Shown piece by piece: positions 1,209 to 37,785 of a stretch of 38,734 bases of DNA; within the stretch, counting starts at the first letter, position 1, and every line of letters starts with the position of its first letter. The notes beneath the pieces are model-generated. The model saw only the letters and a list, made by a program, of their open reading frames with translations. It made no database searches and was not told the origin of the DNA. Position numbers and translations under genes: made by a program. Origin of the DNA: a virus (Duplodnaviria; Caudoviricetes); IMG/VR virus record IMGVR_UViG_3300014201_000016, positions 1-38,734 of that record; one strand, given 5' to 3'.

Positions 1209-1344
1209 TGTACGCCCTGACTGGGTGGTTGTCGAGAACACGCATCATCGGTGGCGAACTTGGGTGCCCGAGCTGCGGCGCATTCTTTGGGGAGTCGGGT
1301 ATGCCAGCCTGCCGCCGCCAACCTTACCTTGGAGTAGCCTGAAA

Positions 1345-1806
1345 ATGATTGTCATGAGCCGCCCCCTCACCCTTGAGACCCTCCTCAAGCGCGGCGCGTG
1401 CGCCGACCAGCGTCAGCGGTTCGCCGACACCTTCGGCAAGTCCGTGGACGTGACGCCGGAACTCTGCATGAGCGTAGCTGACCAGTTCGACTGGTCTTGG
1501 GCCGTGCGGTGTCTGCTCTCACCCGAGGCGCGGGCCGAGCACGAGCGCGTGTGCGCCCCGGCACGGGCCGAGTACGGGCGCGTGCGCGACTCGGCGCAGG
1601 CCGAGTACGAGCGCGTGCGCGACTTGGCGTGGGCCGAGTACGAGCGCGTGCGCGACTTGGCGTGGGCCGAGTACGAGCGCGTGCGCGCCGAGTACGAGCG
1701 CGTGCGCGCCGAGTACTGGCGCGTGCGCGACTCGGCGCTGGCCGAGTGCGAGCGCGTGTGCGCTCGCGAGTTCGGTCGGCTTTACGCGAACGGGGGTGCG
1801 GCATGA
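1345..1806 (+). CDS. 11-aa repeat protein, copy 1 (start ATG 1345 or 1354)
   Basis: GGAG at 1331-1334; N-terminal TLETLLKRGACADQ...FDWSWA domain followed by AEYERVRxxAx repeats; near-identical paralogue at 2286. Confidence 0.8.
   Translation: MIVMSRPLTLETLLKRGACADQRQRFADTFGKSVDVTPELCMSVADQFDWSWAVRCLLSPEARAEHERVCAPARAEYGRVRDSAQAEYERVRDLAWAEYERVRDLAWAEYERVRAEYERVRAEYWRVRDSALAECERVCAREFGRLYANGGAA
1534..1773 (+). repeat. tandem 33-bp and 21-bp coding repeats
   Basis: Unit core gccgagtacgagcgcgtgcgc; eight units, two of them shortened to 21 bp. Confidence 0.9.
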
Positions 1807-2285: not shown

Positions 2286-2789
2286 ATGAGACTCACCCTT
2301 GAGACCCTCCTCAAGCGCGGCGCGTGCGCCGACCAGTGTCAGCGGTTCGCCGACACCTTCGGCAAGTCTGTGGACGTGACGCCGGAACTCTGCATGAGCG
2401 TAGCCGACCAGTTCGACTGGTCTTGGGCCGCGCGGTGTCTGCTCTCACCCGAGGCGCGGGCCGAGCACGAGCGCGTGTGCGCCCCGGCACGGGCCGAGTA
2501 CAAGCGCGTGCGCGACTCGGCGCTGGCCGAGTACTGGCGCGTGCGCGCCCCGGCGCTGGCCGAGTACGAGCGCGTGCGCGCCCCGGCGCTGGCCGAGTAC
2601 GAGCGCGTGCGCGACTCAGCGCTGGCCGATTACAAGCGCGTGCGCGACTCGGCGCTGGCCGAGTACTGGCGCGTGTGCGCCTCGGCGTGGGCCGAGTACG
2701 AGCGCGTGCGCGACTCGGCGCAGGCCGAGTACGAGCGCGTGTGCGCTCGCGAGTTCGGCCGGCTTTACGCGAACGGGGGTGCGGCATGA
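2286..2789 (+). CDS. 11-aa repeat protein, copy 2
   Basis: N- and C-terminal parts almost identical to 1354-1806; nine 33-bp units in a different order. Confidence 0.8.
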   Translation: MRLTLETLLKRGACADQCQRFADTFGKSVDVTPELCMSVADQFDWSWAARCLLSPEARAEHERVCAPARAEYKRVRDSALAEYWRVRAPALAEYERVRAPALAEYERVRDSALADYKRVRDSALAEYWRVCASAWAEYERVRDSAQAEYERVCAREFGRLYANGGAA

Positions 2790-26351: not shown

Positions 26352-27911
26352 CTAAGCCGTCACATTCACAAACACAACCGGAGCATAGTAATCCACTGCA
26401 TTTCCGCCCGATCCCGCACCAGATATCTGCGTTAAACCTATAGAACCAGGTAGAGCAGCTGAGGTCACCGAGAAGAATCCCTGTCCGGGAACAAACTGCA
26501 TACTGTTGACTTGCGTCTGTCCGATGAGACCTTGCAATTGGGGACCAGGCCCTAACGGTACAACAACATTGCTCAAACTCGCAGCATTGGTGTTCGTAAA
26601 GGTCGTGTTCGTCATCACACCGACGAATAGATCATATCCACCGGTATAGTTCACATTAATCGGTGCTGAAAAGCGTCTCATCCCGGAAATCGAAGCCGCT
26701 GAGTTATTACTCGAGTTGGTCCACTGATACGACTGAGAGCCACTGCTTGCAAGACTCAAGGTCGAACCATTGAGAGAATACAGCCCGACATAAAGGCTCA
26801 AAGCCTCAGCATCTGAAGACAATGCAATGGTGGACAAGGAGACTGAAGCGAAGATATCCGCTCTCGTAGCAGTGAACGGAAAAGCACCGGGTGCAGGATA
26901 AACCTGCACGCTTCCAAGACCATTCTGCGTCACCGTCGTATTGAGCGACGGAATCGGCTGAAAGAACGACAGTTGAACTAATTGAGCACCAATGGAGATC
27001 GTGCTCGCATTGACTGCGACTGAGACTAACCCTGTCCCCGAAAGCGATGAGGTCACAGGAACCGACAGTTGCACGCTGCCGTTACTGAATCCGACGGTCA
27101 TCGCTCCCAGACCATCGAAACTCACGGTTCGTGCATCAAGAGTCGTAGAGCTATTTTGAGTAGTGTTGCCTACTCCGTAGAGTCCTACGGTTTGATTGGT
27201 CTGGGTCGGAACTGTATAGGAAGCGGTAATACTCGCCGCGGAAGCTCCAGTGGACACTCCAAAGGTCAAGCCATTGGAGTTCTGAAAGGTCATTCCCGTG
27301 ACGGTATTACTATTCCCTGCTCCCCCTGAAACAGCTAGCGCTGAGATCAATCCAGCTGTTACAGGAACGGTATAGGAGCCCGTAACGGTGACGACAGAGG
27401 CTCCAGTTGAAACCCCAAAAGTAAGTCCGTTGGAGTTCGAGAACGTGATACCAGAGACTTTGCTCTGACTGTTCCCAGCTCCTCCCGAGACATTCAGCCC
27501 AGAAATCAATCCTGCGGTGACAGGAACCGTATAAGAAGCTGAGATTCCATTAGCCCCGGAGGAGCCAAAGCTCACTCCATTGGCATTCTGGAAAGTCAGA
27601 GTTCCCGAGGAATAACTGCTATTACTGACCGAAACCGCAACCCCACCAACTCCTGCGGCCGATGCTGTTATCGTCTGACCGTTAATCCCAAAAGTGACGC
27701 CGTTAGCATTGGAGAACTGAGCGGTCCCCGAGGTGATGGAATTGACTCCATCAAAGAGCGCAACTCCCCCTCCAGGGCCTCCACCGAGAGCTATAACAGG
27801 CCCTGTGGGCCCTATGAGGCCTGTGCCAGCGGTGTTATTCCAAGCCGCATAAGGCCCTCCTGCGACATTCCCCGTGGTCTGGGTCGCAGGTCCTGGATTG
27901 ACGGCAGTCAC
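26352..27911 (-). CDS. repeat-containing fibre-like protein
   Basis: Four F(S/Q)N(A/S)NG(V/L)(T/S)FG units and repeated SYTVP; C-terminal domain paralogous to 28341-29066. Confidence 0.75.
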   Translation of the reverse strand: MTAVNPGPATQTTGNVAGGPYAAWNNTAGTGLIGPTGPVIALGGGPGGGVALFDGVNSITSGTAQFSNANGVTFGINGQTITASAAGVGGVAVSVSNSSYSSGTLTFQNANGVSFGSSGANGISASYTVPVTAGLISGLNVSGGAGNSQSKVSGITFSNSNGLTFGVSTGASVVTVTGSYTVPVTAGLISALAVSGGAGNSNTVTGMTFQNSNGLTFGVSTGASAASITASYTVPTQTNQTVGLYGVGNTTQNSSTTLDARTVSFDGLGAMTVGFSNGSVQLSVPVTSSLSGTGLVSVAVNASTISIGAQLVQLSFFQPIPSLNTTVTQNGLGSVQVYPAPGAFPFTATRADIFASVSLSTIALSSDAEALSLYVGLYSLNGSTLSLASSGSQSYQWTNSSNNSAASISGMRRFSAPINVNYTGGYDLFVGVMTNTTFTNTNAASLSNVVVPLGPGPQLQGLIGQTQVNSMQFVPGQGFFSVTSAALPGSIGLTQISGAGSGGNAVDYYAPVVFVNVTA

Positions 27912-28171
27912 CGGCCATCCTCTTTGGCCGCGATCTCAAGTTGAGGTAGAAGAGCTCCAGACTTATCCAGAGGTTTACCGGTGTGTCTCGTTTCGACCAC
28001 GGATAGCTCTGCTTGAGTATTCACAGCTCCTTGAGAAGCTGGAGACAGAGCGCTTTTACCCTCCAGACACTTCACCTCAGCTTGAGGGATTAGAGGTTGA
28101 GACGCGGATAGAGGTAAAGCCGTCCTTTGGCTCTCCAAAGCATCCTCATGTCCGCAGAGAGGACATCTCAT
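27908..28171 (-). CDS. hypothetical protein with N-terminal CxxC
   Basis: MRCPLCGH; GGAG RBS; 4-nt overlaps at both ends. Confidence 0.5.
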   Translation of the reverse strand: MRCPLCGHEDALESQRTALPLSASQPLIPQAEVKCLEGKSALSPASQGAVNTQAELSVVETRHTGKPLDKSGALLPQLEIAAKEDGR

Positions 28172-29066: not shown

Positions 29067-31205
29067 TTAAGTCTCCTGAGATTGGTTTTCGCCCTTCTTC
29101 AGAGCGTGCTTGGCGGCCTCAATGTCATATTTGCCGCCGACATGGGTATCTAGAATCTTGCCTGCCGCGCCAATCTCGGCCACTGCGATACTTGCTTGTG
29201 CCTTCGTATGGGTATCGTGCATCTTGGTTTGAGCCTCGGTCACGATATCCGCACGCTTGGTCTGTTCCGTGAGTGCGTGTCGCTGCGTTTCCGCCTGTTC
29301 CTGCATCTGAGTGATGCCGCCCTTGTACTTCAGTTCTAACTGAAGATGCTGAATAACCTGTTGAGCCTGGGTCAACTGTTGCTGCATTGCCGTGACAATG
29401 CCTTGAGCTTCTTTAGGAAGCTGCTTAATGGCCTGTTCTAGCCCTTGTGGGGTGAGCGGAGCCAGACGATCAGCCAGATCGTCAGCCCCAGCAAAATCCA
29501 TATTACGAACGATGAGATCAGCCCCCACTTTAGCAATGGGCTCGGCGAGAGGGGTCTTGAGTAGATCAAGCATGGCTTCTGCCCCTTCCAACCGTTTCGT
29601 CTCATATCCTGGCCCTGTATCCATGACGACGTCATATCTTCCTACCGTCACGTCGTTCTTGATGATGGTTAAGGTCGGGTCCTGAGGATTCGGAGCTCGC
29701 TCATTGATCTTCACCATCTGAGGGACCCCGTCTTCTCCCACAATCCTCTGCATCCTCTCCTCGGAGTAATAGTGAGGGATGAGATCGAGCAGAATCCGCC
29801 CCGTATGAGCTATTGCTCTGGTCTGATTGTCGTAGTACTGGAAATGACTGATATCTGAAAGAGTCTGTCTGCGTTCCAGAGCGACGCCGGAAACAACCTC
29901 ACCAGGCTTATCCTGGCCGGGCTCATGAGGCATTCCCGCGAGGGCCATCAAGTCCTTGCCTGCACTCTCTGCCGCCCCCACGAAGCCCGCGGGGATTGCT
30001 ACAGGCTCGGTTCTGATGGGGGGCGGCAGAGGTGTTTTGGTGCCATCCGGTTGCTCGAGGAAGGCCGGATTGTAGACCAGAGCCTTATAGGGCTTCTGGT
30101 TCGCATCGTTCCACTCGTTATGACCGTCGAAATGCTCTGCGGTCCCTAACCATGGGGCCAGGGGGGCGAGAGCTATGGTCTCAGTCTCCTTCGTTCTCCA
30201 ATAGTTGTACATCCTCTGGGCATCCATCATGTCCATGACCATGCCCCGCCGTCGCACCTCACCGTTGAGGTCTAGACGGTTCCCTTCACAACGGACTATG
30301 GGAATCCAGTGACCGGGTAGTTCTACCTTTTCGACTACGGTCGTACCGTTGATGCGATACCACTCGATCTGTCTGCGATAGGTGGGACGCTTGATGTCAT
30401 CCCCCCTAAGATTCTTTGCAACACCTCCGTGGCGCTCGGGAACATAGAGGCTTTGATAGACAGACCCTCCTGATTGGAGCTTGAGGAGCGTGTCCTTTTT
30501 CTTGGCGATCCGGAAGTATTCAGCAAGCCGGATTTGCTCCTTGGTTTGCCAGTCCTTGAATTCATCCCCTGTTGCTCCTTCTCGCCATTCCGTTTGTTCA
30601 TCATCCGGATACTTACGCTCATACTCTGATCGCTTCATCATCTCCGAGACGATGCACCATTCCATATCCTCGCCCGAGGGTTGGATAGAGGCTGGATCGA
30701 TATAAACAGTAAAGGGATTCATGACCGGCAGCAAAATCAGCTCCTGCTGATCGACAGAATCCTTCACCCATTCCGATAAGACTCTCCAGTATCCCCAGCC
30801 GATCTTGACCGAGAATTCGCCCCCGGTGTCATACGCCACTCCAGCGTGACTATGAGTCTCGATGTGGCGGATGAGACCGGAAATCTTCCTCGCTATATCA
30901 ATATCAGCCCCTTCCCCCACCGGATGCACTTTGATCCGGGGTCTCTGCTGTCTCATGTTATTCACCACCCGTCGCACCATGGTACGGGTGTGATTGATGG
31001 TCAGAGTGGGTCGGCGAGATATCTTACGGAGATTGCAGAGATCATCCGGCCATTGTTGGCCATCCTCGAACTGCAGGGCTAGAACAGCGTTGTTTCTGTT
31101 CTCACCCTCTGCTTGTTGTGCAATGCGCAATCGGTCTGCACATTCAGCGAAGATTTCAGTATCTGTTATGGCTTCTTTGTGGGATTCGGCCGGGATTATG
31201 GGCAT
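29067..31205 (-). CDS. portal protein, P22 gp1-like
   Basis: F..GQQWP...RPTLTINH...VVN..RQ.RP.IKV.P, DAQRMYNYW, SGVAL..RQ, GRYDVVMDTGPGY.TKR.E. Confidence 0.95.
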   Translation of the reverse strand: MPIIPAESHKEAITDTEIFAECADRLRIAQQAEGENRNNAVLALQFEDGQQWPDDLCNLRKISRRPTLTINHTRTMVRRVVNNMRQQRPRIKVHPVGEGADIDIARKISGLIRHIETHSHAGVAYDTGGEFSVKIGWGYWRVLSEWVKDSVDQQELILLPVMNPFTVYIDPASIQPSGEDMEWCIVSEMMKRSEYERKYPDDEQTEWREGATGDEFKDWQTKEQIRLAEYFRIAKKKDTLLKLQSGGSVYQSLYVPERHGGVAKNLRGDDIKRPTYRRQIEWYRINGTTVVEKVELPGHWIPIVRCEGNRLDLNGEVRRRGMVMDMMDAQRMYNYWRTKETETIALAPLAPWLGTAEHFDGHNEWNDANQKPYKALVYNPAFLEQPDGTKTPLPPPIRTEPVAIPAGFVGAAESAGKDLMALAGMPHEPGQDKPGEVVSGVALERRQTLSDISHFQYYDNQTRAIAHTGRILLDLIPHYYSEERMQRIVGEDGVPQMVKINERAPNPQDPTLTIIKNDVTVGRYDVVMDTGPGYETKRLEGAEAMLDLLKTPLAEPIAKVGADLIVRNMDFAGADDLADRLAPLTPQGLEQAIKQLPKEAQGIVTAMQQQLTQAQQVIQHLQLELKYKGGITQMQEQAETQRHALTEQTKRADIVTEAQTKMHDTHTKAQASIAVAEIGAAGKILDTHVGGKYDIEAAKHALKKGENQSQET

Positions 31206-31265
31206 CTAGCTGATCTAATGTACGATGGCGTACATAACTTGATTTTCCCTATGATAGGCTTTCAG

Positions 31266-31325
31266 AGCTAGCAACGGATGACCCCCGGGGTGGCCGGGTA
31301 GCGCACCGAGACTGCCCCGGGGGTC
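31266..31325. promoter_or_regulatory. hairpin motif, copy A
   Basis: AGCTAGC, then 11-bp stem GACCCCCGGGG/CCCCGGGGGTC enclosing GGTAGCGCACCGAG. Confidence 0.6.
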
Positions 31326-31329
31326 CACT

Positions 31330-32778
31330 TCAAGTATCCATCCAGGAAAGACCATCGTGTCTCGGAGGGATACTCAAGATAGGCTCCTGGACTTTAGATC
31401 GCTGAATCTGAGGCGGTTTAGCAAACTCCAATCCCCTCCCAATGAGGCTGCATACGTCCACGCCATCATCGTATTTCCCTGCTGGAAATCTCATCAGCTG
31501 CCCCATAAGGGTTGGGAGCCAGGCGGAATGCGTCGGCATAAAGACATTCCCCATCGCCGCACGAGCCTGAAATGCTCTTGCGCGCACAACCTTGTCCGCA
31601 ATCGAGGGCAGCCATTCGAGCCTGCAGGGAGTGAGCCGCTCGGACATGCGCCTCTTCAAGAACGGCTCTATAGCTTTGCGGATTGGACCTGATTCGCCGA
31701 ACCAGATCAGGGGTTGCCATCGGGCTATCAGGTCGCACTGTCGCTCGATCCAGACGTTAGATGCAGCTTGTTCTCGCCACCAGTCAAGAACATACAAATC
31801 CCCATTGTGGTCGAGTCCGAAAATACCATGCTCAGTGTAGTCCCCTCCGCCTTCAGTGACAGCGTAGTCACTGGCTCCGTAGATGTGCATGGTTTGGGGG
31901 GCTGTGGCGTATTCGTTGAAGTGCTCTCGTTTGAAGTAGTCTCCATCTTCAGGAGCAGGGTCTTGCTGGTAAAGAGCATTCCAAGCCCTGACATCCATCC
32001 TTGCGGTTTTAACCATTTCATCCGTAAACCACTCGGGCCACAGTCTCTCGCCTTCCTTTCGTCCCAGAGGATCATTCTCTACTGCGAGCATGGGAAGCTT
32101 CAGGATTTCCCATCGGTTTCCCTCTCGCTCGAGGATTCGTCCTGAGAGATCAGCTTCATGCCATCGGGTCTGGATAACAATCTGCGGAGCTCCAGGAAGA
32201 AGCCGCGTGAGGAAATCATTGAGATACCAGTCCCAATGTTTCTCTCTGACACGCTCCGAATCCGCTTCTTCCCTACTCTTGACAGGGTCGTCGATAAGGC
32301 CGAGACCAGCTCGCCTTCCTGCGATAGCACTACCGATACCAGCAGCGAAGAATTCTCCCCCTTTCTCATTCTCCCAACTTCCCGCTGATTTACTGTCTTC
32401 GTTACAACCAAAACCAAAGACGTTCCGATAGCGATTGCTCGCTACGATGTTCCTTGCTCGTCGGGAGAATCGTTCGGCGAGTTCTGTCGTGTTTGAAACG
32501 CCCAGGAGCGGAGTACTGAAATGTCTTCCCATGTAATAGGGCGGGAAGAGAACGGAAGCATACGTGCTTTTAGCTGAGCCCGGAGGCATCCAGACCATGA
32601 GTCGCTCGAGTTCCCCCCTGACAATAGCCTCAAGGCGTTCGATAAGAAGCTTGTGGTGCCTGGAAGGGGATGGAGTGATTCCAAGATATTCAATGAAGCT
32701 CGCCAGGCTCTTCGCCGCCTGTCGGCGCGCTAGAAGTTCCGATGCGGCCTCCTGTGGCGATAGAGGCGAGCTCAGCAT
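31330..32778 (-). CDS. terL: terminase large subunit
   Basis: MPPGSAKS Walker A, LIDDPVK Walker B, QTRWHEADL, ALYQQ.P, SDYA, FP.GKYDD.VD; exact start uncertain. Confidence 0.95.
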   Translation of the reverse strand: MLSSPLSPQEAASELLARRQAAKSLASFIEYLGITPSPSRHHKLLIERLEAIVRGELERLMVWMPPGSAKSTYASVLFPPYYMGRHFSTPLLGVSNTTELAERFSRRARNIVASNRYRNVFGFGCNEDSKSAGSWENEKGGEFFAAGIGSAIAGRRAGLGLIDDPVKSREEADSERVREKHWDWYLNDFLTRLLPGAPQIVIQTRWHEADLSGRILEREGNRWEILKLPMLAVENDPLGRKEGERLWPEWFTDEMVKTARMDVRAWNALYQQDPAPEDGDYFKREHFNEYATAPQTMHIYGASDYAVTEGGGDYTEHGIFGLDHNGDLYVLDWWREQAASNVWIERQCDLIARWQPLIWFGESGPIRKAIEPFLKRRMSERLTPCRLEWLPSIADKVVRARAFQARAAMGNVFMPTHSAWLPTLMGQLMRFPAGKYDDGVDVCSLIGRGLEFAKPPQIQRSKVQEPILSIPPRHDGLSWMDT

Positions 32779-32983
32779 CGCTGAGTTCAGTTGCGTCACG
32801 GATCGTAAACTCTCCGATGACCTCGCTGGGAATTAGCCGGCCATATAGCTTATAGAACTCCGTCAGATTCTCTCTTGCCCAATCTGCCATTGCTGCTGTG
32901 CCACCGAGTCTCGTGAATACAGCAACAATGTTCTCTTTGACTTGAGCGCCTAATCTATTCTTTGCACCTAGGGGTCTAGCCAT
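32690..32983 (-). CDS. terS: terminase small subunit
   Basis: RPLGAKNR...VF..LGG...M..WA.EN..EFYKLY.RLIP; directly upstream of terL. Confidence 0.7.
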   Translation of the reverse strand: MARPLGAKNRLGAQVKENIVAVFTRLGGTAAMADWARENLTEFYKLYGRLIPSEVIGEFTIRDATELSDAELASIATGGRIGTSSAPTGGEEPGELH

Positions 32984-33006
32984 AATTTACTGCTTAAGCA
33001 GATGAT

Positions 33007-33243
33007 TTACCTTGTACTCGGCCAGCGATCGAATCTCGGCTGATAAACCGTTACTCCACCTGAATCATTGGGAATCTCGAAATGTCTTCCCATGTTCTCT
33101 TCCCTCTGCGTCAAGGTATCAATCTGTTCCAGGATTGAGAGTAACTGCTTCTGGACTTCTTTCATGCTGTTCTGCAATAGAAATACGTCTTGCTCTAGTT
33201 TCTCGATCCTGGGAATGACTTTGGGTGGGCCTCTTTTGGACAC
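33007..33243 (-). CDS. hypothetical coiled-coil protein
   Basis: 78 aa, GAGG RBS, GTG start. Confidence 0.55.
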   Translation of the reverse strand: MSKRGPPKVIPRIEKLEQDVFLLQNSMKEVQKQLLSILEQIDTLTQREENMGRHFEIPNDSGGVTVYQPRFDRWPSTR

Positions 33244-33353
33244 GAAACCTCACATTCAATGGAAAAGCCATTGAAACCAGAGCTTTAAACCTCTGTTTGC
33301 ATTCAAGACAAAATGTTAAATATTCAGGACACTCATGACCGCATTGTAAACAT

Positions 33354-33761
33354 CTAGGGGTCGAGAATAGCGGCAACATCGTCTTCGGTGCAGACAACGT
33401 GCTCTTTGGTTCCCCAGATGAATGTTTTGTGGAGATAGCCTTCAAGCTCTAATCCACCGAGCTCTACGATGTCTCCGACTTTGACCTGGGTCGGGACGAA
33501 ATGCTTACTGAGCCACCTTTTGGTCCTCTTCCCTTTCCGACCGTCGTATTTCCAGCCGTATTTTCCGGGACCCACGGCTTTGACTTTGCCCCTAAGTGTT
33601 CGGCCACGGTAGACGACGCTGATAATGTCACTGGGGCGCCATTCAAGCGGTTCAATGATGATCTGATTAAGTATCGGGCGTAAGCTTGAGGACTCAGGGA
33701 TAACCTCGGACGATTCATTGCCGATTCGAGTCCCAGCAACAACCGGACCACCAAAGCTCAT
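33354..33761 (-). CDS. GroES/Cpn10-like co-chaperonin
   Basis: LRPI.NQIIIEP...G.VKAVGPG...P..VKVGD.V...EDDVAAIL. Confidence 0.85.
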   Translation of the reverse strand: MSFGGPVVAGTRIGNESSEVIPESSSLRPILNQIIIEPLEWRPSDIISVVYRGRTLRGKVKAVGPGKYGWKYDGRKGKRTKRWLSKHFVPTQVKVGDIVELGGLELEGYLHKTFIWGTKEHVVCTEDDVAAILDP

Positions 33762-33910
33762 GATTTCTTACGGCTTTTCTGCTTTTTCTCGGCATACTCG
33801 GAATACGCAATAGCGGCCCTCTGCTTCTGAGGCCACTTCTGGTCTTTCTTCGCTCCCATGAAGCGGGAAATATATTCGCTAAGGGGCTCGCCCTTATTTG
33901 GGGTTGGCAT
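33758..33910 (-). CDS. small basic phage protein (50 aa, not in ORF track)
   Basis: MPTPNKGEPLSEYISRFMG...WPQKQRAAIAYSEY...; ATGA-coupled to the GroES-like gene. Confidence 0.7.
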   Translation of the reverse strand: MPTPNKGEPLSEYISRFMGAKKDQKWPQKQRAAIAYSEYAEKKQKSRKKS

Positions 33911-33945
33911 AGTCCCTAATTAGCCACGCCAAATGCTCAATAGCC

Positions 33946-34272
33946 TTAGGCATTGTTCTTCGTGGGCTCTACAGTCTTCTTGGACTGAGTCACATCCGAA
34001 GGATCGGTAGCTTTCGTGGAATGGACATTAGACTGATCGACAATTGTCGGAATCTTGACCTGCATTCCAGACTTTCCACCGACATAGTTATATCCAGGTC
34101 CATGACCTCCGGGTCTGAAGCCTGAGGCCTTTCCAGGCTCACCAGCGCCTAGAATCTTGCCTACCTGTCTTGCCCCATTGGTTAGCTCGAAAGCCTTCTC
34201 AGGACGGCCTGAGGAGGTATTCTCGCGGCCGTTGAATCGAGGTTGATTACCGTTTGGGACCCTGGAAGCCAT
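33946..34272 (-). CDS. hypothetical basic, Gly-rich protein
   Basis: Start MASRVPNG at 34272 overlaps the upstream TAA (TAATG). Confidence 0.6.
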   Translation of the reverse strand: MASRVPNGNQPRFNGRENTSSGRPEKAFELTNGARQVGKILGAGEPGKASGFRPGGHGPGYNYVGGKSGMQVKIPTIVDQSNVHSTKATDPSDVTQSKKTVEPTKNNA

Positions 34273-34469
34273 TAACCGAGCTCTCTGACCTTTGAGTGAT
34301 CCGTGCAATCGGAGTCTTTGGGGAGTCGAAATACCACCCCATCCTGATGGCCGCGTTCGCCGGCGTGGTTGTGATCCTCGATTCCTGCAACGGACTTCGG
34401 ATGACCCGATTCCTTCTTCATCCCCTTGTGGCTCGACTTGTTTTCGCCTCCCGGCGGCATATTGGGCAT
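34272..34469 (-). CDS. hypothetical protein
   Basis: 65 aa, GAGG RBS. Confidence 0.55.
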   Translation of the reverse strand: MPNMPPGGENKSSHKGMKKESGHPKSVAGIEDHNHAGERGHQDGVVFRLPKDSDCTDHSKVRELG

Positions 34470-34478
34470 TGAATTTCC

Positions 34479-34865
34479 TCAAGTGACAGAGACACACTCT
34501 AGCCGTTTATTACTCTCCAATTGTCTGACAGTCAAGCCGTATATGCGATGGTACAATATTCGGCGTGCACGACTGACCTTCACACGTAGCGCATTGACGC
34601 TCCAGCGCATCGTCTTGGCCTTCTCGTAGATGTTCCAGTATCCCCCAGAGGGCTTGAGATTAACGGCGTAGAAGACCTGTAATGCGGCCTGGTGCGATTC
34701 TGAGAGTCTCAAGATATGGTAGTGGACCTGCCAGACGGTCTTGGGCATCTCGGCGCAGAGGATTTTGTGGCCCGCCGGCTGATCGGACCAAGTGAGGGTA
34801 TGGCTGGCTTGATGGGGGAGACCCAGGTCCATATGATGACGCTCGTACCAGTCGCCCCATCTCAA
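34479..34865 (-). CDS. Q-like late regulator / sigma-region-4-like protein
   Basis: WG.W N-terminus, I..L.......L...Y, C-terminal HTH-like KA..M..S...L...VSRAR; sits just before the packaging genes. Confidence 0.6.
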   Translation of the reverse strand: MRWGDWYERHHMDLGLPHQASHTLTWSDQPAGHKILCAEMPKTVWQVHYHILRLSESHQAALQVFYAVNLKPSGGYWNIYEKAKTMRWSVNALRVKVSRARRILYHRIYGLTVRQLESNKRLECVSVT

Positions 34866-35269
34866 GAGCCGGCCGTGCAGTTCCTGGTACTCGAGCGAGA
34901 CTCGGATAATCCCTCTCCCTTTCCCTCAGTATTCCATAATCCAAGAGCTCGCTCAATCCACTGTAGAGCTTCCCCGGACTTGATTTGACTCGGTGCAACA
35001 CGAATTAAGCGCCAGCCTAAAATGGCTAATTCGGCGAACTTGCAGTTGTCCTCGAGTACCCCTGCCCCCCTAACGTGACGGCCTCGAGTCCACAAACCGC
35101 CATCCACCTCGATAGCTAATTTCTGTTCCACGTAAGCAATATCCAATCTCCATTGCCTCTTCGGATGAAACTTAAATTCACACACGAATCCAGAGAGTAA
35201 AGGATTAGCGTGTTTAAGTTCCCAGGCTAGTTGATCGGCTTTATCGACTCTCACGAATTCTCCAGACAT
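34862..35269 (-). CDS. PD-(D/E)XK-family endonuclease
   Basis: EFKFHPKRQWRLDIA...KLAIEVDGG...GRH.RG.G...D..K...A..LGWR. Confidence 0.8.
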   Translation of the reverse strand: MSGEFVRVDKADQLAWELKHANPLLSGFVCEFKFHPKRQWRLDIAYVEQKLAIEVDGGLWTRGRHVRGAGVLEDNCKFAELAILGWRLIRVAPSQIKSGEALQWIERALGLWNTEGKGEGLSESRSSTRNCTAGS

Positions 35270-35369
35270 ATTCAGCCCCCTTTCCCATCCGGATCCCAAC
35301 TCCGTGGTGGTACTTAGGCTCCCCAACTCATATTGTTCCTTTAGTGAATCAATGGCATACTGTAGTCCA

Positions 35370-35422
35370 AGCTAGCGTATCCGAGGGCCATCACCAGGTA
35401 GCGCACTGAGCTGGTGGCCCTC
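35370..35422. promoter_or_regulatory. hairpin motif, copy B
   Basis: AGCTAGC, then stem GAGGGCCA.CACCAG/CTGGTGGCCCTC carrying GGTAGCGCACTGAG. Confidence 0.6.
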
Positions 35423-35451: not shown

Positions 35452-35778
35452 TCATGCAATCCTCTTCCTTCTTTGATGTTTGAAATGCTGTCTTATTAGG
35501 GAACACATTTCATCGAGTGATTTGCACTGCGGCAATCCTCGAATGATGTATGCAATTGGACCGTACTGAAACCATTCTCCATTAGCCGCATATCGATTAA
35601 GTAATTTGTGAAGCACGGCTTCCGTCTGTTCTGCGGCTTTCTCACTTTGACACAGAATTTTAAATAGCATCTTCAGCTTTACAGGATTACCTACCTGAAG
35701 ATCATTCATACGGTCTCGTGGGTTATTGGCTTTCCCAATCTTCACGTACTGATTAGCCTGTATAGCATAGACGTACAT
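35452..35778 (-). CDS. GIY-YIG (T5orf172/MUG113-like) nuclease
   Basis: YVYAI.....VKIG.A.NP.DRM.DLQVGNP...E..LH..L......GEWF; GGAGG RBS before ATG 35778. Confidence 0.85.
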   Translation of the reverse strand: MYVYAIQANQYVKIGKANNPRDRMNDLQVGNPVKLKMLFKILCQSEKAAEQTEAVLHKLLNRYAANGEWFQYGPIAYIIRGLPQCKSLDEMCSLIRQHFKHQRRKRIA

Positions 35779-35792
35779 AGATCCCTCCATGA

Positions 35793-36064
35793 CCCCCCCA
35801 CCCCCCATAATCAAGGGGTTAGGAGGGGCGACCTCCCTGCTTTAGTTTAGACTCGCGCCTGGATATAAGCCCCCAGCGAGTAGTCATCGATGAGGGTCAG
35901 GTGACTAGCCCATATACTTTCGTGCCTCAGACGGGTCCGAAAGCTTGGCCGGGTTGACTTTGGATGTCCGTTAGGCAGAATGTGCCTATCCGGATGCGCC
36001 GCTATCGCTCCGGCCCGGCTGTCAACCGGACCTACGCCCCCTTGGACATAATCCCTGGGGGCGT
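35793..36064 (-). ncRNA. candidate ~270-nt structured RNA ending in G6-T-G7
   Basis: No ORF; many stems (GGTCCG/CGGACC, GTTGAC/GTCAAC, CCGGA/TCCGG, TAGGCA/TGCCTA, ACTCG.CTGG/CCAG.CGAGT); promoter directly upstream. Confidence 0.65.
35954..35981 (+). promoter_or_regulatory. possible antisense sigma70 promoter
   Basis: TTGACT (35954-35959)-16 nt-CAGAAT (35976-35981); -10 imperfect. Confidence 0.45.
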
Positions 36065-36071
36065 TTCTTTT
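36034..36071 (+). terminator. intrinsic terminator on the plus strand
   Basis: ACGCCCCC/GGGGGCGT 8-bp stem with inner GGA/TCC, followed by TTCTTTT. Confidence 0.7.
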
Positions 36072-36097
36072 ATAGTCCTACAGTTTGAGGTAATCAA
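36069..36097 (-). promoter_or_regulatory. sigma70 promoter
   Basis: Minus strand TTGATT-17 nt-TATAAA. Confidence 0.7.
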
Positions 36098-36156
36098 GTC
36101 TGACATAAACTCGGGTTTGACTGTTCCATTAGCGCTACAGTAGACTCATTCTAAGC

Positions 36157-36579
36157 ATGCTTTGTATCAGAGGCGTCCTCACCGGTTACCGGCCCGAGCT
36201 GAGGCGCCTCATTTGCTGGACTGAGGACTGGCGAGTCTATTCGGCAAACTCCCACTCGCCACAGGAGCCACAAAATCCAGCGTCCGAAGGCGCCGGGCAT
36301 GCCTACTCCAATTACGAGATGAAGCTTCGCGTTTTCGCGCTTGAGAGCCTTGTTCTTTCGACATGCGTGTCAATAAAGCGAGGTGGGGGCGGATTAACTC
36401 TAAAAGCCGGACAAGATCAGGCGAAGGCGTGGATCGAGCGGCAAGCTTTCGACTTGGAAAAGGAATTACAGCAATCCGAGATTTGGAAGTCTTTACCGGA
36501 GCCGAAGCATCTAACCGTCGAGCTTTTCCGCGCCGAGCTTTCTGACTTGGCATCACGAGTTGGTCACTCCAATGGTTAA
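36157..36579 (+). CDS. hypothetical protein (start uncertain)
   Basis: 140-aa ORF overlapping the next plus-strand gene; only the C-terminal half looks protein-like. Confidence 0.4.
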   Translation: MLCIRGVLTGYRPELRRLICWTEDWRVYSANSHSPQEPQNPASEGAGHAYSNYEMKLRVFALESLVLSTCVSIKRGGGGLTLKAGQDQAKAWIERQAFDLEKELQQSEIWKSLPEPKHLTVELFRAELSDLASRVGHSNG

Positions 36580-36727
36580 GAAAAAGCAGCCTAAAGACAC
36601 CCCCGAGCAGCAGCACACGCGCTTTGTCGAAGCGGCTAAGAAAGCTGAAGCCGATGAAGCGCCGGATGCTATGGATAAGGCGTTCAAGAGGATTGCCTTG
36701 GAGAAGAAGGCCCCACGGAAGCCATAG
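36572..36727 (+). CDS. small helical protein (51 aa, not in ORF track)
   Basis: MVKKKQPKDTPEQQHTRFVEAAKKAEADEAPDAMDKAFKRIALEKKAPRKP. Confidence 0.7.
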   Translation: MVKKKQPKDTPEQQHTRFVEAAKKAEADEAPDAMDKAFKRIALEKKAPRKP

Positions 36728-37625
36728 TGGTCCTTTTCATGTATCCGTCTATTAGCGATCGTCGGACATTCGCTAATGCGCCCGGTTTGTAGCGCATGAT
36801 AGTAAGTCGGTCCCTTTTTCCAGAAGGGGTCGTGCCATCGTCCTGTGAAATAGGTTTGCCTTCTCGCGTTTTAATTTCCCTAACTCCTTGCGAGAGCGCT
36901 AGGAAATCTCCAGCCATCAATGGATCGCATTCTTCTTTGGCAGCAAATGTAAGTTCACCAAGTAAATCGTATTCTGATCCCTTAAGATCCCTTTTTATCT
37001 CGTTAAAAATCCGCAGCGCATCGCCTGCATTCTTGTGCCCACTTTCCAGAACGCAATGCAAGGTAGGTAACTGACCACGATGTTTCCGACGCGCCGCCTC
37101 GACAACGAAATGCATGAGGCAGTTATGTACGCATATTCCGTACTTGCTATCTAGGCGCAGTTTTTTTGGCTTCTCACCAGTTTTGTACTCGGCCTCATAT
37201 GCAGCGTTATCGAGCACCGCAACCGCGCTTTCCATAAAGGCATTACTGGTTAGTTCGTATAGAGCCTCGACCAGCGCAATACATTTCTCGTTACTCCATC
37301 CTTTAAATTCGCCGGTCTTGTGTTTAAATTTCCTGGTGTGGAACACCTTGAAGCCGTATTCCCTCTTGATGATCCGGTAGGCTCCTTCGAATGCTTCCCA
37401 TTGACGAGCGCTCGCCATAGCGCCGCCGACCACGGTAACCGGCGACCCGTCGTGCGTATGGCCCTCATCAAGGTAGCCAGTAATGATCACAAATAGACGC
37501 TCAGCCTCCCACCTGTGGGCAATAGCAACGCAAAGTTCACGCGCAAACGACAACCACCTAAGGCCGCTATCATCATAGCGCCTCTGGTTTGCGAAGTGTA
37601 ACGTCGCCTTATTCTTTGCTGCCAT
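36684..37625 (-). CDS. DUF3800-like RNase H-fold protein (start may be further downstream)
   Basis: GYLDEG.TH....VVGG......W, FH, V.E.G, K....PL.A.DFLA. Confidence 0.75.
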   Translation of the reverse strand: MAAKNKATLHFANQRRYDDSGLRWLSFARELCVAIAHRWEAERLFVIITGYLDEGHTHDGSPVTVVGGAMASARQWEAFEGAYRIIKREYGFKVFHTRKFKHKTGEFKGWSNEKCIALVEALYELTSNAFMESAVAVLDNAAYEAEYKTGEKPKKLRLDSKYGICVHNCLMHFVVEAARRKHRGQLPTLHCVLESGHKNAGDALRIFNEIKRDLKGSEYDLLGELTFAAKEECDPLMAGDFLALSQGVREIKTREGKPISQDDGTTPSGKRDRLTIMRYKPGALANVRRSLIDGYMKRTTMASVGPSSPRQSS

Positions 37626-37785
37626 TTCCCATGGCCTTAAGAAGCTTCTGCAGCGTCACATAGCTAGGCTTAAATTCTCCCTTGATGAGATAATGCAGCG
37701 TTCTAAGGGATATTTGAGTAGCCCTCGATACTTCCGCCACACCAGTTGACCGTATATAGCGCTTAATCTCATCGATCTGCGTCAT
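37609..37785 (-). CDS. Cro/XRE-type HTH regulator (58 aa, not in ORF track)
   Basis: MTQIDEIKRYIRSTGVAEVSRATQISLRTLHYLIKGEFKPSYVTLQKLLKAMG; first gene at the strand divergence point. Confidence 0.85.
   Translation of the reverse strand: MTQIDEIKRYIRSTGVAEVSRATQISLRTLHYLIKGEFKPSYVTLQKLLKAMGNGSKE

What the first reader, a model, noticed from the sequence alone, without database searches (positions are those of the whole stretch)
31215..35422. Repeated hairpin motif with conserved loop and different stems, each followed by a micro-ORF
Seen: two intergenic sites (31266-31325, 35370-35422) share AGCTAGC, a 6-7-nt spacer, and a long stem of unrelated sequence carrying GGTAGCGCACYGAG. On the transcribed (minus) strand, loop GCUA could pair with UAGC downstream (pseudoknot). 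Each site follows a stop codon and precedes a tiny ORF: MYAIVH* (31235-31215, just before the SD-less portal ATG) and MSWGA* (35331-35314). Inference: an unrecognised cis-regulatory RNA (antitermination, processing or translational control) or the leader left by deleted mobile nuclease genes.
Basis: partly seen in the sequence, partly recalled or inferred. Interest (0 to 1): 0.7.

Follow-up and report, generated by a model that had tools for sequence, protein, structure and literature searches.

The report
Phage opposite-strand promoter plus hairpin RNA
This uncultured phage carries two, probably three, copies of an uncatalogued hairpin that also occurs in four related phage lineages, and each copy sits just behind a predicted promoter on the strand opposite the genes, so it is likely a small antisense RNA that would damp the phage's own early-to-late genes.

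Summary
The repeat is real and is more than chance would give. It is a 17-nt cap (3 bp, a bulge, 1 bp, 8-nt loop) on a variable 10-14-bp stem. A probable third copy lies at 36170-36210. Four other phage lineages carry it (L025/L039, L321, L658, L668); Rfam has no match.

In 7 of 7 independent copies the best sigma70-like promoter on the PLUS strand (opposite the genes) ends 32-67 nt before the cap (0/150 and 0/300 shuffles; mean 8.8 bits against 3.9 for the same DNA on the gene strand). No search used the promoter. L039 lacks it. All 7 copies fold the same cap on that strand. AGCUAGC is then the predicted 5' end of a ~60-nt RNA; relatives have a second hairpin there instead. The micro-ORFs are largely the reverse complement of promoter boxes, and the pseudoknot is at chance level.

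Best reading (0.42): an OOP/aQ-like cis-antisense RNA cassette against the cro-to-late mRNA. Rivals: a put-like leader, a trans-acting or decoy RNA, a sense-strand element. There is no transcript evidence, no terminator directly behind the hairpin, no proven target, and the host is unknown.

The parts
31199..31226 (+). Site 1 distal sigma70-like promoter (predicted): -35 TGGGCA 31199-31204, 16-nt spacer, -10 TACGAT 31221-31226; overlaps the portal start and MYAIVH on the other strand
   Evidence: 6.0 bits, best of 260 nt; alone not significant, P=0.31
31231..31260 (+). Site 1 proximal promoter (predicted): TG-extended -10 TAGGCT 31255-31260, 33 nt before the core, same spacing as site 2 and copy 3
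   Evidence: 4.5 bits, third best; weak
31266..31272 (+). AGCUAGC block, predicted single-stranded 5' end of the site 1 RNA
31280..31325 (+). Site 1 hairpin; core 31294-31310, loop GUAGCGCA 31298-31305, bulged A 31309
   Evidence: -37.0 kcal/mol, z -4.8 on plus; -32.8, z -3.3 on minus
31215..31328 (-). 37-codon GTG-started open frame from 1 nt after the terL stop to 9 nt before the portal ATG; MYAIVH is its tail; may keep terL-portal coupling
   Evidence: translation not shown
35333..35361 (+). Site 2 promoter (predicted): -35 TTGTTC 35333-35338, 17-nt spacer, TG-extended -10 CATACT 35356-35361; overlaps the SD of MSWGA on the other strand
   Evidence: 8.2 bits, best of 260 nt; P=0.068 alone
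35369..35376 (+). AAGCUAGC block, predicted 5' end of the site 2 RNA
35383..35422 (+). Site 2 hairpin; core 35394-35410, loop GUAGCGCA 35398-35405
   Evidence: -25.5, z -3.9 on plus; -20.4, z -1.7 on minus
35314..35331 (-). MSWGA* micro-ORF; likely incidental to the plus-strand promoter
36034..36072 (+). Intrinsic-terminator-like hairpin and U-tract 653 nt after the site 2 core; may end the site 2 transcript or one from the promoter-like site at 35954-35981
36117..36146 (+). Copy 3 promoter (predicted): -35 TTGACT, 18-nt spacer, -10 TAGACT
   Evidence: 11.8 bits; P=0.011 alone
36153..36210 (+). Probable third copy: AAGCAUGC 5' block (36153-36160), hairpin 36170-36210, changed loop UUACCGGC
31330..32799 (-). 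Terminase large subunit; its 3' end is what the site 1 RNA would run antisense into
29067..31205 (-). Portal protein, no SD-like word upstream
35452..35814 (-). T5orf172/MUG113 (GIY-YIG-like) gene that a site 2 transcript would run antisense into
37609..37785 (-). Cro-like HTH gene heading the minus-strand transcription unit in which all three copies are embedded

Best explanation
The repeat is a conserved hairpin that lies just behind a predicted promoter on the strand opposite the phage genes, and it is likely transcribed as a small antisense RNA that would pair with the overlapping cro-to-late mRNA and lower expression across that gene junction. Shown: the hairpin, its homologues, and promoter-like boxes at a fixed distance on the plus strand. 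Inferred step 1: host sigma70 polymerase starts about 6-7 nt after the -10 box. This gives a ~60-nt structured 5' part in the window (AGCUAGC tail plus one hairpin) and ~90 nt in relatives (a first hairpin with a C/U-rich loop containing GUCACUG, plus the same hairpin). Inferred step 2: the 8-nt loop meets the complementary loop of the sense mRNA, the bulge and single-stranded tail help the duplex extend, and the duplex is cut by RNase III or blocks the ribosomes that relay from the upstream stop to the next gene. This is how lambda OOP and aQ RNAs are described to work. The 3' end is undefined: no U-tract follows the hairpin, so the RNA is either processed or is the 5' end of a 0.5-1.1-kb antisense transcript.
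For: Promoter: the -10 box ends 32, 35, 56, 59, 59, 63 and 67 nt before the core in 7 of 7 independent copies; 0/150 whole-region shuffles and 0/300 20-nt block shuffles did this. On the same 110 nt, the antisense strand beats the sense strand in 7 of 7 (mean 8.8 vs 3.9 bits; 0/1000 local shuffles). 5 of 7 score 8 bits or more, against a genome background of 1.6%. The promoter was in no search query. Two spacing classes match two RNA forms: 32-35 nt for the window type (site 1 has a weak 33-nt site), 56-63 nt where a first hairpin is present. Folding: all 7 unconstrained folds share the apical structure on this strand, while site 1 and L025 fold the cap in another register on the gene strand. 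The antisense strand is more stable in 4 of 7 by 1-5 kcal/mol and less stable in 3 of 7 by 0.8-1.9. Homology: G004 (L321), found by the motif alone, shares portal, scaffold and capsid genes with the window. CAGTGACG follows the core in L025, L321 and L658 without having been in their queries. G001 and G003 are identical over 119 nt spanning the element while the flanks are about 50% alike. Antisense-strand terminators lie 553-1111 nt further on in 4 of 8 loci (no background computed). Precedent: OOP and aQ RNA (PMC12197685, passage).
Against: No transcript data show strand or ends. L039 has the RNA part but no promoter there (2.6 bits; sense 5.9). Site 1 and L025 promoters are not significant alone (P 0.31, 0.20). 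There is no U-tract after the hairpin. A purely cis-antisense RNA need not keep its sequence, yet 10 of 17 core positions are invariant in 7 of 7, which points to a protein or trans partner. The predicted RNA does not cover the start codon of the next real gene, although the promoter boxes overlap it at site 1 and L658. The weight matrix used recalled E. coli frequencies, the host is unknown, and the distance pattern was noticed before it was tested on the same loci.
Confidence: 0.42

Rival explanations
1. Put-like leader: the plus-strand promoter is real, but the hairpins act in cis on RNA polymerase or a host factor and let a leftward transcript read through into cI, the left operon or inserted genes, as HK022 putL does right behind pL.
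For: Two predicted hairpins of about 90 nt directly behind a promoter in 4 lineages; putL is about 70 nt, two stem-loops, just downstream of PL (PMC9378689, passages). No terminator follows the hairpin. The invariant cap is shared by phages with unrelated virion genes (G001 shares no structural gene with the window), which suggests a host partner. Copy 3 lies upstream of same-strand genes at about 36310-36727. L025 has TTAY repeats at a 10-bp period around a weak -35, like an activator-dependent pRE-type promoter (recalled).
Against: No likeness to the HK022 cro-cII (putR) gap (P 0.10-0.95; model finds nothing in L669); putL was not compared. Window copies have one hairpin only. Sites 1 and 2 point into antisense sequence with no gene to express. 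No copy behind the leftward-operon promoter in the window, G004 or G010.
Confidence: 0.2
2. Trans-acting small RNA or decoy: a free-standing RNA gene inserted at gene junctions, whose loops pair with distant phage or host mRNAs or whose invariant cap binds a host protein.
For: Core conservation exceeds what cis pairing needs. Distribution is patchy: 1 of 44 terminase-related records, many of them fragments, three copies here. The copy 3 loop pairs over 10 nt with the start of the 519-aa gene at 27907-27916 (0/40 shuffles; 1 of 14 tests). The loop complement sits at codon 1 of the next ORF in G003. P1 C4 has a loop with UCACU, also present in the first-hairpin loop of the four relatives.
Against: Loop and block complements are not enriched in 6 genomes. 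11 of 14 seed tests against start regions gave P at or above 0.05, two of them at exactly 0.05, and one gave 0.025 on a doubtful ORF. No host genome was available to search.
Confidence: 0.18
3. One reading: a cis element of the minus-strand (gene-strand) mRNA that controls processing or the translational relay to the next gene.
For: Every copy lies at a gene junction of the cro-driven unit. GTG-started frames next to the upstream stop stay open across the hairpin in site 1, site 2, L025 and L321 (joint P about 0.005, post hoc). Site 1 and L658 share an AUG-bearing hairpin and MYA-starting micro-ORF (2 places in 1.12 Mb).
Against: It does not explain the plus-strand promoters. The shared MYA 9-mer lies at the predicted start site of the antisense RNA and is not significant after 28 comparisons (P=0.019). 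The three reading frames are all used. The pseudoknot is at chance level. Forcing the block unpaired does not change SD accessibility at site 1. No boxA (2 or more mismatches).
Confidence: 0.13
4. DNA-level or catalytic role: a cruciform or single-stranded DNA signal, or a self-cleaving RNA.
For: Both strands fold, and DNA energies are nearly symmetric. It lies upstream of replication genes in L025 and L668.
Against: Fixed spacing to a promoter fits an RNA. No ribozyme family matches. The window has no recognisable replication gene near any copy.
Confidence: 0.05

Closest known systems
Lambda OOP and aQ RNAs, P22 sar RNA (cis-encoded phage antisense RNAs; PMC12197685, passage)
   Same: Own promoter on the strand opposite the cro-driven operon (predicted); short structured RNA complementary to the mRNA it lies in; position between cro and the replication or nin-type genes in several carriers.
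   Different: No terminator directly behind the hairpin; a conserved cap on freely varying stems; the same module at up to three unrelated junctions in one genome, one between terminase and portal; an exchangeable 5' domain.
C4 antisense RNA of P1/P7 (Rfam RF01695; PMC5320573, passages; AF234172 annotation)
   Same: Small phage RNA with exposed loops and no terminator of its own; UCACU in a loop.
   Different: No three-stem junction, no a/b target pair up- and downstream, opposite strand to the operon rather than inside the same transcript, no Rfam hit.
HK022 put RNA (PMC9378689, passages)
   Same: Two stem-loops of 70-90 nt directly behind a promoter (four relatives); found near cro.
   Different: No sequence likeness to the putR region; opposite orientation to putR; window copies have one hairpin; no copy at the leftward-operon promoter.
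Lambda nut site (boxA-boxB; J02459 annotation)
   Same: In L025 the element starts 6 nt after the cro-like stop, where lambda has nutR 24 nt after cro.
   Different: No boxA, a 40-45-nt bulged hairpin rather than the 15-nt boxB, and evidence for the other strand.

Membership tests
Any Rfam 15 family | Covariance-model match at or near the gathering score | tested here: not met
   No match over any copy: window E<=1, 31150-31400 E<=10, L311/L489/L310, L668/L658
OOP/aQ/sar-type cis-antisense RNA | Own promoter on the strand opposite the target operon | tested here: met
   Predicted only: 7 of 7 independent copies, L039 excepted
OOP/aQ/sar-type cis-antisense RNA | Own intrinsic terminator defining a short RNA | tested here: not met
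   No hairpin-plus-U-tract closer than 553 nt in 8 of 8 loci
OOP/aQ/sar-type cis-antisense RNA | Overlap with the translation start or coding end of a regulated gene | tested here: inconclusive
   Site 1 RNA reaches the terL stop and the GTG of the relay frame, not the portal start
OOP/aQ/sar-type cis-antisense RNA | Represses the overlapping mRNA (RNase III decay or translation block) | not testable with these tools
   Needs experiments
C4 antisense RNA | Three stem-loops with a' and b' single-stranded regions | tested here: not met
   Predicted folds have one or two side-by-side hairpins unlike P1 C4
C4 antisense RNA | a and b target sites in the same transcript | tested here: not met
   Best matches to P1 a2/b2 or their complements carry 1-3 mismatches at scattered places in 7 of 7
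C4 antisense RNA | Released by RNase P | not testable with these tools
   Feature from PMC5320573
HK022 put | Two stem-loops directly behind an early promoter | tested here: inconclusive
   Predicted in L025, L321, L658, L668; window copies have one hairpin
HK022 put | Sequence likeness to put | tested here: not met
   cro-cII gap of AF069308, gene-strand comparison, P 0.10-0.95; two-strand model search of L669 negative; putL not compared
HK022 put | Binds the beta' zinc-binding domain and suppresses termination | not testable with these tools
   Feature from PMC9378689
Lambda nut site | boxA next to the hairpin | tested here: not met
   Best match 2 mismatches (site 1), 3 in the other six; gene strand only
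Lambda nut site | Phage N-type protein | not tested
   No dedicated search; no protein of 40 aa or more was shared by all carriers
DUF3800-associated RNA motifs (PMC5737381) | Consistent neighbourhood of a DUF3800 gene | tested here: not met
   DUF3800 at 36684-37625 in the window has no homologue in G001, G003, G004, G010 or G049
Self-cleaving ribozymes | Conserved pseudoknot and catalytic core | tested here: not met
   Loop-to-downstream pairing at chance level; no Rfam ribozyme hit; cleavage itself not testable

The most novel reading that the evidence does not exclude
A portable promoter-plus-RNA module of a soil/wetland phage group that is not a base-pairing repressor at all. Its invariant cap would bind a host machine (RNA polymerase, as a new put-like class, or a defence protein, as a decoy). 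Its self-complementary loop centre (GCGC in six copies, CCGG in copy 3) would let copies kiss, making activity depend on RNA concentration, with copy 3 forming an orthogonal channel (self-pairing -7.5 to -10.3 kcal/mol, cross-pairing with sites 1/2 -1.8).
Probability: 0.12. Interest if true: 0.85.

Novelty: new variant of a known kind. Interest (0 to 1): 0.6.

Why it matters
Few phage-encoded small RNAs are known outside enteric model phages. This is an uncatalogued family with predicted promoters and start sites, a fixed cap, an exchangeable 5' domain and reuse at three unrelated junctions of one genome, including terminase-portal. It is short enough to test directly. If cis-antisense, it shows a reusable damping module for early-to-late expression. 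If put-like or a decoy, it would be a new class of RNA acting on host machinery. It is also a caution for genome reading: micro-ORFs and SD-like words can be the reverse complement of a promoter.

Tried and rejected
Collection scans and rows dropped (kept = stem of about -23 kcal/mol or better and not inside a conserved coding region):
- 0 hits.
- 3 of 66 kept (L006/L025/L039, identical in the element, counted once).
- 0 of 79.
- 1 new of 34 (L321).
- (metagenomes): 96 loci; 2 are the window's own contig (L411, L412; excluded), 0 others.
- (GTDB): 0 of 45.
- 120 loci, scan cut; only re-finds.
- 15 matches in 12 of 44 terminase-related records; 1 kept (G010). L610 rejected as coding; L616 left out as probably coding.
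- 1 new of 34 (L668). L638 rejected as coding; L651 not confirmed.
- GTDB samples: model R2 on 151 genomes gave 2 hits of 34-36 bits, both coding or antisense to coding, so this short model gives false positives. The two-block pattern hit 1 of 401 (coding) and 0 of 401.
- INPHARED blastn with three queries: no homologue; two hits inspected and rejected.

Host not identified.

RNA runs: X1 holds half the sampled words. Its contigs cover parts of 29.5-38 kb thinly and none listed spans a hairpin. Contigs give no strand or ends, so this is not used as evidence.

Readings rejected: stop-codon read-through or a conserved peptide (all three frames used); gene-strand intrinsic terminator (at most 5 T in 8 nt); SD switch at site 1; shared GCCAU word (chance level); ops/JUMPstart (resemblance recalled; the GGTAG word is broken in L321, L658 and L668). 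The first boxA test used the wrong 8-mer and was redone.

Not in print as far as searched: paper searches found no description. In Fremin 2023 (PMC10690425), supplements 3-6 held none of the motif words. Its files 1-2 and mmc1-3, which probably hold the alignments, could not be read and may contain this motif.


Full report
Setting. The window is a whole 38,734-bp contig of a P22-like podophage: terminase 32799-31330, portal 31205-29067, scaffold, capsid and ejection genes, all on the minus strand. A Cro-like HTH gene (37785-37609) heads this unit and a leftward operon runs on the plus strand. The closest cultured terminases are under 50% identical. The host was not identified.

Observation. 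Both sites are as described. The shared core is 17 nt, CCRGGTAGCGCACYGAG, expected 2.4e-5 times as a second copy (post hoc). It folds as three pairs closing an 8-nt loop, a bulged base and one more pair, on stems of unrelated sequence. A covariance model from four sequences found a third candidate at 36169-36211 (18.5 bits, E=0.034). Its flanks resemble site 2, but sequence alone does not make it significant (27 vs null maximum 31). I treat it as probable because its promoter and 5' block (AAGCAUGC for AAGCUAGC) later fell into register. Rfam has no match.

Homologues. Eight viral scans (seven DNA patterns and one terminase search), one metagenome scan and one GTDB scan gave four further lineages: L025 (with L006 and L039; 3 of 66 loci), L321 (1 new of 34), L658 (1 of 44 terminase-related records) and L668 (1 new of 34). 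All other rows were dropped as chance or coding and are listed under Tried and rejected. Members were chosen partly by stem stability, so the stem covariation (10 of 14 pairs with two-sided changes, covariation score reached by 0/500 shuffles) is partly circular. The four cap pairs hold in 28 of 28 cells with one two-sided change (73/500). Independent checks: L025, L321 and L658 carry CAGTGACG 18-26 nt after the core without having been asked for it; G004 and G010 share portal, scaffold and capsid genes with the window; G001 and G003 share a 119-nt identical run over the element. On the gene strand the element lies 6 nt after a Cro-like gene (L025), one small gene after it (L658, L668), or further down the same unit (L321 and the window). 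No copy was found in the leftward operons of the window, G004 or G010.

The gene-strand reading. The pseudoknot is not supported: the best loop-to-downstream pairing has P 0.29-0.92 in 7 of 7. There is no boxA, no U-tract and no likeness to the HK022 putR gap. All three frames are used, so it is neither coding nor a read-through signal. Two results favour this strand. GTG-started frames next to the upstream stop are open across four copies (joint P about 0.005, post hoc). Site 1 and L658 share an AUG-bearing hairpin found at only those two places in 1.12 Mb (pattern drawn from those two). The first may simply show that an insert must keep translational coupling; terL abuts the portal in L067, L068 and L073. 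The second has another explanation, below.

The opposite strand. An earlier scan note on another phage (e1-5324036; its claim not checked) and the better plus-strand folds of both sites (z -4.8 and -3.9 vs -3.3 and -1.7) prompted a promoter test. A plain consensus scan put the best antisense-strand hit 44-55 nt from the stem in 5 of 8 loci. With a weight matrix (recalled E. coli frequencies) the best hit in 260 nt ends 32, 35, 56, 59, 59, 63 and 67 nt before the core in 7 of 7 independent copies; 0 of 150 shuffles did so. Controls for local composition agree: 0 of 300 block shuffles; antisense over sense on the same 110 nt in 7 of 7 (8.8 vs 3.9 bits); 0 of 1000 local shuffles; 5 of 7 at 8 bits or more against 1.6% background. 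Against this, L039 has no such promoter, and site 1 and L025 are weak alone. L025 has TTAY repeats at a 10-bp period around its -35, which recalls activator-dependent promoters (recalled). The predicted starts put AGCUAGC, AAGCUAGC and AAGCAUGC at the 5' ends of ~60-nt RNAs in the window. In relatives a first hairpin with a C/U-rich loop takes that place. All seven fold the same cap on this strand. MYAIVH overlies the distal -10 box and start region, the SD of MSWGA overlies the site 2 -35 box, and the 9-mer shared with L658 sits at the predicted start site.

Mechanism. Shown: structure potential, conservation and promoter-like boxes. Inferred: transcription, pairing and effect. The simplest target is the mRNA in which the cassette lies, as for lambda OOP (RNase III decay of cII mRNA) and aQ RNA (PMC12197685, one passage). 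A small GC-rich loop, a nearby bulge and a single-stranded tail are the usual anatomy of kissing antisense RNAs (recalled). I give this 0.42. It does not explain why 10 of 17 core bases are invariant or why no terminator follows; the nearest same-strand terminators are 553-1111 nt away in 4 of 8 loci. A put-like leader (0.20) fits two hairpins right behind a promoter (PMC9378689, passages) but not sites 1 and 2, which point into antisense sequence. A trans-acting or decoy RNA (0.18) fits the conservation and patchy spread. Its only positive leads are the copy 3 loop against the start of the 519-aa gene (0/40 shuffles, 1 of 14 tests) and a loop complement at codon 1 of the next ORF in G003; overall there is no enrichment. 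Loop positions 2-5 are self-complementary in 7 of 7, with a double change in copy 3. That is a single event and only a lead.

Comparison. It works most like OOP, aQ or sar RNA but fails the own-terminator feature. It is not C4: P1 C4 has three stems and a/b targets (PMC5320573, passages), and only UCACU is shared. It is not nut (lambda annotation) and not shown to be put. It is not a DUF3800 motif (PMC5737381, passages). Other papers seen: PMC2864571 (passages), PMC3177189 (passages), PMC7390762 (passages), PMC8191782 (abstract and outline); none describes this motif. PMC10690425: supplements 3-6 were searched without a hit, and the large alignment files could not be read.

Verdict. A real, uncatalogued RNA module in five phage lineages, probably read from the strand opposite the one proposed (about 0.8 across the three plus-strand readings), function untested. 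New variant of a known kind; interest 0.6.

Noticed in passing
window 35815-37625: No recognisable replication initiator between the Cro-like gene and the late region. Instead there is a DUF3800 gene (36684-37625, minus), two small plus-strand ORFs (about 36310-36579 and 36572-36727) and a ~490-nt stretch (35815-36300) with no clear gene.
   Followed up: partly
window 35954-36072 (+): A promoter-like site (35954-35981, 9.8 bits) followed by a strong terminator-like hairpin (36034-36072) could define a second, ~85-nt plus-strand small RNA next to the DUF3800 gene.
   Followed up: no
window 27907-27916 (-): The start region of the 519-aa gene is complementary over 10 nt to the copy 3 loop.
   Followed up: partly
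window 34479-34901 (-): A Q-antiterminator-like ORF by position and recalled appearance, with no PHROG or Pfam hit and no ATG/GTG start behind its SD-like word (possible non-standard start).
   Followed up: no
window 1225-1806 and 2286-2789 (+): Two paralogous ORFs with 11-residue helical repeats (RAEYERVRDSA-like); they give weak false hits to the RNA model.
   Followed up: no
L025 1890-1950 (G001 about 1395-1450): Four TTAY repeats at a 10-bp period around the weak -35 of the antisense promoter; replaced by unrelated sequence in L039, which instead has the loop complement at codon 1 of the next ORF.
   Followed up: partly
window 31218-31235 and L321 about 1440-1460: Both have a perfect 7-8-bp hairpin with the same G-CCAU-C loop, 64-65 nt from the core, overlapping the predicted promoter.
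   Followed up: partly
L067-L111 after terL: The terL-portal junction is an insertion hot spot in relatives: direct coupling in L067, L068 and L073, an HNH-like gene in L070, other ORFs in L071, L075 and L093.
   Followed up: no
P0043, P0071, P0078, P0117: Close terminase homologues with intein or LAGLIDADG-type Pfam domains.
   Followed up: no
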